The translations under genes were made by a program, and so were the position numbers. A stretch of 63,274 nucleotides of DNA, filler included, from Collodictyon triciliatum (taxonomy: Eukaryota): assembly GCA_043381765.1 (NCBI GenBank). It is 37 parts of 37 records of this genome, joined end to end, with 100 filler letters (N's around TTAATTAATTAA, not from the genome) between each part and the next. Parts side by side here need not be neighbours in the genome. Positions count along the whole stretch, not along the records: positions 29,181 to 30,793 come from JBHJMP010010618.1; 36 more parts are not named here. One strand, given 5' to 3'. This document shows positions 29,181-30,143 of the stretch, in pieces. The notes beneath the pieces were generated by a model. It was not told the DNA's origin, ran no database searches, and was given only the letters and a program-made list of their open reading frames with translations. Within the stretch, counting starts at the first letter, position 1; each line of letters begins with the position of its first letter.

Positions 29181-30143
29181 ATACACGTATTGTCACTAGT
29201 GTTTGCAGTATTCAAGGACCGAATGGCGAAAACTGGTTGGCTTCTGGAAGTGGTGATAACACTTTACGTATTTGGGATGCAGCCGCAGGAAACCAAATCA
29301 AAACATTAGAAGGCCATTCAGAGCCAGTCAGATGTGTTTGCAGCATTCAAGGGCCAAATGGTGAAAAATGGCTGGCTTCTGGAAGTTGGGATTATACAAT
29401 ACGTATTTGGGATGCAGCCGCAGGAAACCAAATCAAAACATTAGAAGGCCATTCAGAGCCAGTCAGATGTGTTTGCAGTATTCCAGTACCGAATGGTGAA
29501 AGTTGGCTGGCTTCTGGAAGTAATGATGGAACAATTCGTATTTGGGATGCAGCCGCAGGAAACCAAATCAAAACATTAGAGGGTCACACAAGCTGTCAAT
29601 AGTGTTTGCAGCATTCAAGGACCGAATGGTGAACATTGGCTGGCTTCTGGAAGTGAAGATAAAACAATACGTATTTGGGATTTAGCCACAGGAAACCAAA
29701 CACACAGTCTGCAAAAATCAGAAGTGACCTACACCCAAGGAAAATACCTCGTCAAGAAAAAAAAGCCAGACGAAGTCATCGCAGTATTCAACAGATTAAG
29801 TGATGCGATGAACATGATTGGCACCAACAGAATCCAAGATGTAAAGACAGTCCAGATTATCGGCCCAAGAAAGCTGCAAGGTGGAAACATCCAAATCAGA
29901 AATGTCACAGGATTGAGTCGATTCAACAAATCCCTCCTACTTTCAATCGGTGCTGCTTCCTTTGATGCGGACTTTGTTGCCTATTGCGAGCAGGGTAAGT
30001 TCACCAAGTACCAGGCTCAAATGATGGCTGAATGCTGTGAGAATGGATGGGGTGTTGAGAAGGACACCGAGAAAGCTGCTGGGTGGAGACAGAAAGCCGA
30101 GTGGAGACAGAAAGCCGAGTGGAGACAGAAAGCCACAGCTTAA
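29181..30143 (+). CDS. C-terminal part of a STAND (NACHT/NB-ARC)-type WD40 repeat protein with a terminal Sel1-like motif; 2-bp deletion near 29592
   Basis: Four near-identical 135-bp/45-aa WD repeats (W codons at 29234, 29369, 29504, 29637), then GPRKLQGGNIQIRNVTGLSRFNKSLLLSIGA and AECCENGWGVEKDTEKAAGWRQKA. No introns. The NTPase domain itself is not in the window. Confidence 0.75.

What the first reader, a model, noticed from the sequence alone, without database searches (positions are those of the whole stretch)
29181..30143. NLR/STAND-like WD40 sensor with near-identical repeats varying at HET-E-type positions
Seen: four 135-bp repeats are almost identical at DNA level but differ at a few codons: GS-G-D-N-T, GS-W-D-Y-T, GS-N-D-G-T, GS-E-D-K-T, and H-TRI-V-TS / H-SEP-V-RC / H-TS.-V-NS. 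Known: this pattern of concerted evolution with variable top-face residues around SxDx is the hallmark of Podospora HET-D/E NACHT-WD non-self receptors. The following GPRKLQGGNIQIRNVTGLSRFNKSLLLSIGA resembles, from memory, the C-terminal cap (PRPYEGMNI..VTGL....K..L..LGA) of cyanobacterial NB-ARC-WD40 and Mortierella/Mycoavidus NACHT-WD40 proteins. Here a Sel1-like motif with a tripled WRQKA is added. The gene is intronless in an intron-rich genome. Inference: a diversifying innate-immune or allorecognition receptor family in a protist, with an unusual domain architecture and possibly horizontal origin.
Basis: partly seen in the sequence, partly recalled or inferred. Interest (0 to 1): 0.72.

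Follow-up and report, generated by a model that had tools for sequence, protein, structure and literature searches.

The report
Protist NLR-like WD40 sensor gene fragment
This is the cut-off, frame-shifted tail end of a gene from a large protist family of NACHT–pentapeptide–WD40 "NLR-like" proteins, whose near-duplicate WD40 blades differ mainly at surface positions known to vary in fungal non-self receptors.

Summary
Contig 29181-30793 is one of 37 contigs of about 1.6 kb joined by linkers. It carries 3.7 tandem 135-bp WD40 units, then a conserved tail with a TAA stop at 30141-30143. The units are 70-89% identical in DNA, which is less than "almost identical". A 2-nt gap near 29594 shifts the frame, and the 5' end of the gene is missing.

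Amino-acid differences between units fall on the x-V-x and x-D-x positions that are under positive selection in Podospora HET-E (pN 0.70 against 0.07 at other codons).

The tail is a roughly 32-residue cap plus one Sel1-like repeat. An 18-bp unit at its end is tripled in this copy only.

Of the 150 listed hits from a search of 1.84 billion representative proteins, six share the tail. All six are Diphylleia rotans transcripts. The full-length ones read (CH-DUF4062-)NACHT-(TPR-)pentapeptide-WD40-cap-Sel1. Two of them align over about 520 residues with the Mycoavidus NACHT-pentapeptide-WD40 proteins, an architecture already in print.

Contigs of relatives in public runs show a spliced 56-nt 3'UTR intron and poly(A), so the gene is eukaryotic.

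Verdict: a new variant of a known NLR-like kind. The NTPase of this copy, a formal selection test and any immune role remain untested.

The parts
29181..29594 (+). 5'-truncated WD40 coding region in the first frame (codons from 29183). It holds the end of one blade plus repeat units 1-3, which start at 29192, 29327 and 29462.
   Evidence: Translation P0001. Pfam WD40 E 1.4e-32, 3 stretches. Repeat copies. The contig starts at 29181.
29590..29596 (+). Frameshift site. Two bases are missing compared with the repeat register and with related contigs.
   Evidence: Copy spacing is 135, 135, 133. The first frame meets a stop at 29600-29602, while the frame from 29595 stays open to 30143. Contigs in 3 of 4 runs carry 'GC' put in behind 29591, and others carry T+T at 29590 and 29591 (table 4).
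29595..29714 (+). Fourth and last WD40 unit, in the second frame. It is more diverged: 70-75% DNA identity to units 1-3.
   Evidence: Translation P0002 residues 1-40. Pfam WD40 27.5 bits. Identities.
29715..29855 (+). Poorly conserved linker between the last blade and the cap.
   Evidence: Gapped and variable in alignment A1. AlphaFold2 pLDDT is below 50 for tail residues 1-58.
29856..29957 (+). Conserved C-terminal cap (IIGPRKLQGGNIQIRNVTGLSRFNKSLLLSIGAA, P0002 residues 88-121).
   Evidence: Conserved in all 6 Diphylleia relatives. hhalign against the Mycoavidus-type caps gives probability 94%, E 1.4e-7, 32 columns.
29958..30104 (+). Helical end with one Sel1-like repeat (FDxDFVxYCE ... MMAECCENGWGVEKDTEKAAGWRQKA).
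   Evidence: Pfam Sel1 19.5 bits, E 0.0015, below the gathering score of 30.7. The profile of A1 hits solved Sel1 proteins, 6deh at E 3.8e-12 and 6onw at 7.1e-11. AF2 predicts helices at tail residues 85-93, 98-110 and 118-141.
30083..30134 (+). Perfect 18-bp tandem triplication (2.9 copies) that encodes the repeated (E)WRQKA.
   Evidence: TRF 100% matches. Related contigs join 30098 to the gene end with a single copy (tables 5 and 5c). The Diphylleia relatives have one copy.
30141..30143 (+). TAA stop codon.
   Evidence: Translation. Relatives P0003 and P0007 end at the same aligned place.
30148..30203 (+). 56-nt GT..AG intron in the 3' UTR.
   Evidence: The sequence reads GAAG|GTAAGT...TTTTAG|ATGGAG. 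Related contigs lack it: 3 in X1, 1 in X2, plus loose ends (tables 5, 5c, 7).
30276..30297 (+). AATAAA (30276-30281) and the likely poly(A) addition site near 30295.
   Evidence: Sequence. A poly(A) loose end lies behind 30291 in 2 records of X1 (table 7).
30323..30793 (.). T/C-only microsatellite that ends the contig.

Best explanation
**What it is.** The contig holds the 3' end of one copy of a multi-copy eukaryotic gene family of STAND (NLR-like) proteins. The copy may be a pseudogene. In full-length relatives the order is a NACHT-type NTPase, then pentapeptide repeats, then two or three WD40 propellers, then a short conserved cap and a Sel1-type helical repeat. Some relatives also have CH and DUF4062 domains in front, and TPRs after the NTPase.

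**What is shown.**
- The WD40 identity of the fragment.
- The cap and the Sel1-like repeat.
- The architecture of the relatives.
- That the blades visible here are young duplicates or partly homogenised copies.
- That their amino-acid differences sit on the d-a loop and the b-c turn.

**How it likely works (inferred).**
1. The top face of the propeller binds a variable ligand.
2. Binding releases the NACHT module, which then oligomerises.
3. The N-terminal module signals.
4. Unequal exchange between near-identical blades, within and between paralogues, creates new binding surfaces, as in Podospora HET-D/E.
5. The cap plus Sel1 end probably closes or docks the last propeller.

**Source organism.** It is most likely a collodictyonid or a near relative. 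This too is inference.
For: **Identity of the fragment**
- WD40: Pfam E 1.4e-32.
- Tandem 135-bp units.

**Relatives that share the tail**
- A search of 1.84 billion representative proteins listed its 150 best hits. In 6 of these the match covers the tail.
- All 6 are Diphylleia rotans transcripts.
- P0003 matches colinearly to its own C-terminus: 74/175 identical, no gaps, E 1e-44.

**Architecture of the relatives**
- P0003: CH 42.8 bits, DUF4062 42 bits, nSTAND1 26.1 / NACHT 24.4 / NPHP3_N 22.3 bits, TPR_12 142 bits, Pentapeptide 34 bits, then WD40.
- P0154, which is 2166/2169 identical to P0042: NACHT covers 1-165 of 167 profile positions (24.7 bits, E 2.4e-5), with Walker A GDSGSGKT and Pentapeptide at 39.9 bits.
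- The NACHT-pentapeptide parts of P0042 and P0005 align over about 520 residues with P0034, P0144 and P0086, at E from 1e-33 to 1.5e-40. NCBI names the two Mycoavidus proteins among these, P0034 and P0144, 'NACHT domain-containing protein'; P0086 carries no name.
- This NACHT-PPR-WD40 architecture is in print (PMC11291939, passages).

**Pattern of variation between the blades**
- The 4 HET-E-type codons are variable in 4 of 4 cases, against 7 of 41 other codons (P 0.0022).
- With the GH-xxx loop included, 6 of 6 are variable against 5 of 39 (P 5.7e-5).
- pN is 0.70 at the 4 codons and 0.07 elsewhere, with background pS 0.18-0.26.
- The published positions are codons 7, 9, 25 and 27, on the top face.
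- Internal blade identity here is 76-87%. In the Diphylleia transcripts the mean is 27-49% and the maximum 67%.

**Multi-copy and eukaryotic**
- 378, 309, 95 and 116 contigs at 85% likeness or more in four public runs.
- At least 40 contigs (X1) and 31 (X2) lie over one tail position.
- Spliced joint, poly(A) end, and an AATAAA signal.
Against: - No NTPase or pentapeptide can be seen for this copy, because the contig ends at 29181.
- The copy has a 2-nt frameshift. It may be dead, or the contig may be wrong.
- No public run holds the exact contig (best share of words 0.12), so the assembly could not be checked.
- Units 1 and 2 share an exact 79-nt run. A short-read assembler could therefore have joined blades of different paralogues.
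- Every NACHT-type Pfam hit in the relatives is 1-2.5 bits below its gathering score.
- The blades differ at synonymous sites too (pS 0.18-0.26), so homogenisation is not recent.
- Only 4 blades are available, and the 4 hot codons are saturated (their own pS is 0.58-0.69).
- Top-face residues are the least constrained in any WD40 protein.
- BLASTP does not align the cap with Mycoavidus P0144.
- The templates for hhalign were chosen by a motif regex, which is partly circular.
- The assembly is not pure: one contig carries bacterial-type tRNA-Ile, tRNA-Ala and 23S rRNA.
- No functional data exist for this family.
Confidence: 0.7

Rival explanations
1. The fragment is a dead copy (pseudogene) or an assembly chimera of several paralogues. 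In that case the pattern among its four blades says little about a working receptor.
For: - A 2-nt gap shifts the frame, while related contigs carry two extra bases there (table 4).
- Exact shared runs of 79 and 44 nt between units, together with hundreds of related contigs, make misjoins likely.
- The contig is 1.6 kb and breaks inside the array.
- No run holds it exactly.
Against: - Apart from the one gap, both frames are open for 137 and 182 codons and keep every conserved WD40, cap and Sel1 residue.
- The background pN/pS is 0.27-0.38, which points to purifying selection.
- The gap lies in a GC dinucleotide repeat as read in relatives, which is a typical sequencing or slippage error.
- This reading does not exclude the family-level explanation.
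Confidence: 0.3
2. The family is a housekeeping or cytoskeletal scaffold, for instance flagellar or ciliary like nephrocystin-3, and not a non-self sensor. Blade variation then only reflects relaxed surface positions.
For: - P0003 carries a calponin-homology domain and hits to TPR_NPHP3 and NPHP3_N.
- Top-face positions also vary across the diverged Diphylleia blades: entropy is 3.0-3.6 bits at positions 3 and 22 and 2.6 bits at position 24.
- No infection or incompatibility data exist.
Against: - Several positions vary strongly across the family (7, 12, 32, 35, 38, 39, 41; entropy 3.0-3.6 bits) yet are invariant among units 1-3 here. The differences gather at the d-a loop and b-c turn instead.
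- There are dozens to hundreds of related contigs per run, and the N-terminal modules differ between members. Both suggest an expanded, shuffled family rather than a single-copy scaffold.
- The nearest relatives outside the lineage are the NLR-like proteins of Mycoavidus.
Confidence: 0.2
3. The contig is bacterial, from a contaminant or symbiont. The alternative is a very recent transfer from bacteria.
For: - Most of the other best WD40 hits that carry a name are bacterial: Mycoavidus, Streptomyces, Archangium, Casimicrobium.
- The assembly contains a contig with a bacterial-type rRNA operon.
- The visible coding sequence has no intron.
Against: - A GT..AG intron lies 4 nt after the stop and is spliced out in related contigs. 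There is also a poly(A) end and an AATAAA signal.
- The contig ends in a 470-nt T/C microsatellite. 28 of 37 contigs of the window end in a simple repeat.
- All 6 tail-sharing proteins among the 150 listed hits come from a eukaryote transcriptome.
- Coding GC is 0.45 with GC3 0.39, in a genome of about 0.36.
Confidence: 0.04

Closest known systems
NACHT-pentapeptide(PPR)-WD40 NOD-like receptors of Mycoavidus cysteinexigens and Mortierellomycota (Evol Lett 2024, PMC11291939; passages read)
   Same: - The domain order NACHT, pentapeptide, WD40 is the same in the window's full-length relatives.
- The NACHT-PPR part is homologous over about 520 residues, at E from 1e-33 to 1.5e-40.
- A similar short cap follows the last blade..V.GLS..N..LL...GA.
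   Different: - This is a protist gene with an intron and poly(A).
- Its blades are 45 residues long with a QGPNGE insert.
- It has an added Sel1-type repeat after the cap.
- Some members add CH, DUF4062 and TPR.
- The cap likeness is seen only by profile, not by BLASTP.
- The NTPase of this copy is unseen.
Podospora anserina HNWD family (HET-E, HET-D, HET-R; PLoS One 2007, PMC1805685, sections 9 and 10 read; PMC4986451, passages)
   Same: - NACHT plus WD40.
- Blades are much more alike than in ordinary WD40 proteins.
- Differences gather at the pair flanking the conserved V (d-a loop) and the pair flanking the conserved D (b-c turn).
   Different: - No HET domain occurs in the relatives.
- Blades are 45 residues, not 42-43.
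- Internal identity is 76-87% for three blades and 60-64% for the fourth, so the criterion of more than 85% over 100 residues is not clearly met.
- Pentapeptide, cap and Sel1 modules are present here.
- No evidence on repeat-number polymorphism or incompatibility.
Unnamed Diphylleia rotans transcripts (EukProt EP00002: P032243, P040976, P040774, P021718, P031968, P006060)
   Same: These are the only listed proteins that share the whole tail. They also share the 45-residue blade type.
   Different: - Only 25-44% identical in the tail, and 42% for P0003 over the last blade plus tail.
- Their blades are far more diverged from each other: mean 27-49%.
- They have one WxxK(A/S) end, not three.
Sel1 repeat proteins (solved examples 6deh, 6onw, 8sxq, 6ok3)
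   Same: The last 30 or so residues fit the Sel1 helical hairpin motif. The 11 best PDB hits of the family profile are all Sel1-like or TPR-like repeat proteins, 9 of them named Sel1, with E down to 3.8e-12.
   Different: - There is a single repeat, not an array.
- The single sequence scores below the Pfam gathering score (19.5 against 30.7).
- It is fused behind a WD40 propeller.

Membership tests
WD40 repeat (PF00400) beta-propeller | Tandem units of about 40-45 residues with GH...WD signature that match the Pfam model above its gathering score | tested here: met
   P0001 scores 111.1 bits (cut-off 27), E 1.4e-32, 3 stretches. The fourth unit scores 27.5 bits. The best solved matches are WD40 propellers.
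STAND / NLR-like NTPase (NACHT) | A NACHT or NB-ARC P-loop NTPase domain N-terminal to the repeat domain in the same protein | not testable with these tools
   The contig ends at 29181 inside the WD40 array. No genome is held, no run holds the contig, and no related metagenome locus was found.
STAND / NLR-like NTPase (NACHT) | The same feature in the closest full-length relatives | tested here: inconclusive
   - P0003: NACHT 24.4 bits, nSTAND1 26.1, NPHP3_N 22.3. All three are just under their cut-offs of 26.7, 27.1 and 24.8.
- P0154: NACHT 24.7 bits over 165 of 167 profile positions.
- Walker A GDxGSGKT is present in P0042 and P0005.
- BLASTP E from 1e-33 to 1.5e-40 to P0034, P0144 and P0086; NCBI names P0034 and P0144 NACHT domain-containing.
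- Taken together this is strong, but the curated Pfam thresholds are not reached.
NACHT-PPR-WD40 NLRs (Mycoavidus / Mortierellomycota type) | Pentapeptide repeats between the NTPase and the WD40 domain | not testable with these tools
   Unseen for this copy. Present in the relatives: P0003 34 bits, P0154 39.9 bits, P0042 35.5 bits, against a cut-off of 20.2.
NACHT-PPR-WD40 NLRs (Mycoavidus / Mortierellomycota type) | A short C-terminal cap after the last blade (..V.GLS..N..LL...GA) | tested here: met
   - The cap profile gives weak hits at the C-terminal caps of P0034, P0086 and P0144, and at an internal cap of P0085.
- hhalign: probability 94%, E 1.4e-7 over 32 columns.
- Caveats: the templates were chosen by regex, and BLASTP finds nothing.
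Podospora HNWD (HET-E type) receptors | High internal conservation of repeats: more than 85% amino-acid identity over at least 100 residues (PMC4986451) | tested here: not met
   Identities are 39/45 (87%), 37/45 (82%) and 34/45 (76%) among units 1-3, and 27-29/45 to unit 4. This is close to the threshold but below it over 100 residues.
Podospora HNWD (HET-E type) receptors | Positive diversifying selection at the two codon pairs flanking the conserved V and D | tested here: inconclusive
   4 of 4 such codons vary, against 7 of 41 others (P 0.0022). pN is 0.70 against 0.07, and exceeds the background pS of 0.18-0.26. There are only 4 units and the sites are saturated, so no likelihood test was possible.
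Podospora HNWD (HET-E type) receptors | N-terminal HET cell-death domain | tested here: not met
   No HET hit in the N-terminal parts of P0003 (1-1637) or P0154 (1-960) at E up to 0.01. This copy's own N-terminus is unseen.
Sel1 repeat (PF08238) | A match to the Sel1 helical-hairpin model | tested here: met
   - The single sequence scores 19.5 bits, E 0.0015, below the cut-off of 30.7.
- The family profile A1 hits solved Sel1 proteins at E from 3.8e-12 to 1.8e-8, always at profile positions 92-125.
- Relative P0042 continues into true Sel1 repeats (63.6 bits), and these also match the tail profile.

The most novel reading that the evidence does not exclude
A deep-branching unicellular eukaryote of the CRuMs lineage keeps a family of dozens or more NACHT-pentapeptide-WD40-cap-Sel1 receptors. 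Their blades are reshuffled and diversified at the ligand-binding face in the manner of HET-E. This would be an NLR-type non-self recognition system in a free-living flagellate. It would share ancestry, through transfer in one direction or the other, with the NLR-like proteins of Burkholderia-related endosymbionts and of Mortierellomycota.
Probability: 0.25. Interest if true: 0.7.

Novelty: new variant of a known kind. Interest (0 to 1): 0.45.

Why it matters
NLR-like receptors with self-similar, fast-changing repeat domains are well documented in fungi, and the NACHT-pentapeptide-WD40 type is documented in Mortierellomycota and their endobacteria. Finding the same architecture in a CRuMs-type protist would widen where such systems are known. 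Here it is expanded, carries an extra Sel1 end, and varies at the HET-E positions.

It would also give a test case for two questions. One is whether repeat reshuffling as a way to make new specificities is older than fungi. The other is how these genes moved between bacteria and eukaryotes.

The fragment itself is weak material: 1.6 kb, truncated and frame-shifted. Its value is as a pointer to the family, not as a finished finding.

I found nothing in print on this. Searches for 'Diphylleia' + 'NACHT' (one unrelated paper), 'NACHT' + 'pentapeptide' + 'WD40' + 'STAND' (five papers, none on protists) and 'NLR' + 'EukProt' + 'NACHT' + 'protists' (none) gave no description. Supplementary tables of those papers could not be seen.

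Tried and rejected
- **Word-indexed protein searches:** the tail against longer proteins gave none at E 0.001 or better. The whole P0002 timed out. The profile A1 against longer proteins found only P0007. A ketopantoate-reductase-like ORF (59230-59769), used to place the organism, found none.
- **Metagenome loci:** with P0002, 102 pattern matches but no relative. With A1 the tool said the alignment was too variable.
- **Sequencing runs:** no run holds half or more of the words (best 0.12). The laid contigs are therefore relatives, not this copy, and say nothing certain about the frameshift or the blade order here.
- **AlphaFold2 of the tail** with 6 sequences: mean pLDDT 56, residues 1-58 below 50. 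I did not use it for a fold search.
- **ESM Atlas** with the tail: no usable hit.
- **NCBIfam:** nothing relevant.
- **PADLOC** on three relatives: only repeat-type hits and weak ones.
- **Regex for a cyanobacterial-style cap** (Y.G.NI...GL....L..GA): 0 of 144 other hits within 80 residues of the C-terminus, and 1 of 144 anywhere.
- **tblastn of both parts against the window:** no paralogue on the other 36 contigs.
- **Earlier findings of this scan:** nothing.
- **A tiny intron at the 2-nt gap:** considered and rejected, because the repeat register simply loses two bases there.
- **TAA read as a sense codon:** considered and rejected, because the relatives end at the same aligned place.
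Full report
**What the window is.** The 63,274 bases are not one locus. TTAATTAATTAA occurs 36 times at regular spacing, each flanked by N runs. Splitting at these linkers gives 37 contigs of 1607-1620 bp, sorted by length. 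The finding lies on contig 29181-30793. No whole genome is held for the window. The gene therefore runs off the 5' end of a 1.6-kb contig, and nothing upstream can be read.

**The observation.**
- Tandem Repeats Finder reports a 135-bp period, 3.7 copies, 87% matches, at 29199-29700.
- The repeat finder places copies at 29192, 29327, 29462 and 29595.
- The copies are less alike than 'almost identical'. DNA identity is 88.9, 82.2 and 80.0% among units 1-3, and 70-75% to unit 4. Protein identity is 39/45, 37/45 and 34/45.
- Identity is mosaic. Units 1 and 2 share an exact 79-nt run, and units 2 and 3 share 44 nt.

**The frameshift.** The spacing of the last copy is 133, not 135. The frame that covers units 1-3 hits a stop at 29600-29602. 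A frame that starts at 29595 is open to the TAA at 30141-30143. In contigs of related sequences from public runs, 'GC' is inserted behind 29591 in one contig each of X1, X2 and X6, or T+T at 29590 and 29591 (table 4). Either keeps the frame. I could not tell whether the gap here is a real lesion or an assembly error, because no run holds this contig (best share of sampled words 0.12).

**Where the blades differ.** I put the units in one register, starting one codon before the conserved V.
- Residues differ among units 1-3 at 11 of 45 positions: 1, 3, 4, 9, 10, 15, 22, 24, 26, 44 and 45.
- In Podospora the strongly selected codons are 7, 9, 25 and 27. They form two pairs that flank conserved codons 8 and 26, in the d-a loop and the b-c turn on the top face (PMC1805685, sections 9 and 10).
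- The corresponding positions here (x-V-x, x-D-x) are variable in 4 of 4 cases, against 7 of 41 others (P 0.0022). With the GH-xxx loop added the count is 6 of 6 against 5 of 39 (P 5.7e-5).
- By Nei-Gojobori counting, pN is 0.70 at the four codons and 0.07 elsewhere. Background pS is 0.26 for units 1-3 and 0.18 for all four units.
- Positions 15, 22 and 24 carry four different residues in the four units.
- Several positions are highly variable across the diverged blades of the relatives (7, 12, 32, 35, 38, 39, 41; entropy 3.0-3.6 bits) but are invariant among units 1-3 here. The pattern is therefore more specific than 'loose sites vary'.
- Limits: only four units, saturated hot codons (their own pS is 0.58-0.69), and clear synonymous divergence. 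This is a suggestive pattern, not a selection test. The fungal criterion for high internal conservation, more than 85% over at least 100 residues (PMC4986451), is approached but not met.

**The tail.** After the fourth blade comes a poorly conserved linker. Then comes a conserved cap (P0002 residues 88-121), then a helical end.
- Pfam gives Sel1 at only 19.5 bits against a cut-off of 30.7.
- A profile of the tail with five relatives (A1) retrieves Sel1-like or TPR-like repeat proteins as its 11 best solved matches, 9 of them named Sel1. The E-value goes down to 3.8e-12, and the match is always at profile positions 92-125.
- Relative P0042 continues into true Sel1 repeats (63.6 bits).
- AlphaFold2 gave a poor model (pLDDT 56) with helices in the last 75 residues.
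- The tripled WRQKA is a perfect 18-bp x 2.9 repeat. Related contigs and the Diphylleia proteins have one copy (table 5c), so it is a young, copy-specific duplication.

**Relatives and architecture.**
- phmmer against 1.84 billion representatives gave 62,511 hits at E 0.001 or better, almost all through the WD40 part. Among the 150 listed, only 6 match the tail. All 6 are Diphylleia rotans transcripts from EukProt.
- P0003 (2619 aa) matches colinearly to its very end: 74/175 identical, no gaps, E 1e-44.
- The N-terminal 1637 residues of P0003 hold CH, DUF4062, a NACHT/nSTAND1/NPHP3_N-type NTPase (24.4, 26.1 and 22.3 bits, each just under its cut-off), TPRs and pentapeptide repeats.
- P0154 (2166/2169 identical to P0042) holds a NACHT match over 165 of 167 profile positions (24.7 bits) and pentapeptide repeats.
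- P0042 and P0005 have a different N-terminus from P0003. Their NACHT-pentapeptide part aligns over about 520 residues with P0034, P0144 and P0086, at E from 1e-33 to 1.5e-40.
- P0034 and P0144 are Mycoavidus cysteinexigens proteins that NCBI names NACHT domain-containing.
- These Mycoavidus-type proteins also end in a similar cap. hhalign gives 94% probability, E 1.4e-7, over 32 columns. I chose those templates by a motif regex, and BLASTP does not see the cap.
- The NACHT-PPR-WD40 architecture of Mycoavidus and Mortierellomycota is in print (PMC11291939, passages).

**Eukaryote or bacterium.** Four nucleotides after the stop lies GTAAGT...TTTTAG (30148-30203). Contigs of relatives join across it: 3 in X1 and 1 in X2, with matching loose ends. 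Two X1 records end in poly(A) just after 30291, 10-20 nt downstream of AATAAA at 30276-30281. X1 and X2 are only guessed to be RNA, but splicing and poly(A) fit that guess. The contig ends in a 470-nt T/C microsatellite, and 28 of 37 contigs end in simple repeats. The assembly is not pure: contig 34319-35928 carries tRNA-Ile(GAT), tRNA-Ala(TGC) and the 5' part of a bacterial-type 23S rRNA. Nothing ties the WD40 contig to that one.

**Size of the family.** At 85% likeness or more, 378 (X1), 309 (X2), 95 (X3) and 116 (X6) contigs lay on the 1150 bases. At tail position 30037, 40 contigs in X1 and 31 in X2 share one variant. These are contigs, not genes, but they indicate many paralogues in related organisms, including in freshwater metagenomes. 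No paralogue lies on the other 36 contigs of the window.

**Reading.**
- Shown: this is a WD40-cap-Sel1 3' gene end of a lineage-restricted, multi-copy eukaryotic family. Its full-length members are NACHT-pentapeptide-WD40 proteins related to those of Mycoavidus.
- Inferred: this copy had the same N-terminal modules; the top face of its propeller binds a variable ligand; blade exchange creates diversity; and the source is a collodictyonid-like protist.
- A dead copy or a chimeric contig remains quite possible for this particular fragment.

**Novelty.** The kind is known, as are HET-E-type blade variation and the NACHT-PPR-WD40 architecture. The setting and the details are not described in the papers I could search: a protist host, the added Sel1 end, 45-residue blades, and the CH/DUF4062/TPR variants. 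I rate it a new variant of a known kind, of moderate interest. It is held back by the poor state of the fragment.

Noticed in passing
whole window: The window is 37 contigs of 1607-1620 bp, sorted by length and joined by N runs around a TTAATTAATTAA linker (36 linkers). Neighbouring 'loci' are therefore unrelated, and any reading across a linker is meaningless.
   Followed up: yes
window 34319-35928: This contig carries tRNA-Ile(GAT) at 34678-34752, tRNA-Ala(TGC) at 34788-34861, and the first 850 or so positions of a bacterial-type 23S rRNA at 35122-35963. That is the classic spacer of a bacterial or organellar rRNA operon. Its GC is 0.48. The assembly therefore includes bacterial or organelle DNA.
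   Followed up: partly
window 15464-17079: One open frame spans the whole contig (538 codons). It is built of cysteine-rich Ephrin_rec_like repeats (E 1.3e-88, 16 stretches), with NCD3G and TNFR-like matches. This is a protist-style surface protein cut at both ends.
   Followed up: partly
window 41772-42287 (- strand): An ORF with a weak Exo_endo_phos match (23.1 bits, cut-off 24.5). It may be the endonuclease of a LINE-like retroelement.
   Followed up: no
contig ends throughout, e.g. 28901-29080, 27464-27641, 30323-30793, 24037-24142: 28 of 37 contigs end in a simple repeat, for example (ATACA)36, (AAAACA)30, T/C tracts and (AAGA)25. The assembly evidently breaks at microsatellites, and the genome is very rich in them.
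   Followed up: partly
window 59961-61567 and 36029-37637: These are composition outliers among the contigs, with GC 0.19 and 0.54 against a typical 0.33-0.40. They may come from a different source or compartment.
   Followed up: no
window 51562-52041 (+): An ORF with paired Cys/His spacing that recalls AN1-type zinc fingers. The resemblance is from memory and was not tested against Pfam (translation).
   Followed up: no
proteins P0085 / P0158 (metagenome, 3631 and 4127 aa): P0158 carries the Mycoavidus-type cap motif twice (near residues 2530 and 3847), each time after a WD40 block, and P0085 carries it once (near 2528). The cap therefore behaves as a module that closes each propeller array rather than as a protein C-terminus.
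   Followed up: partly
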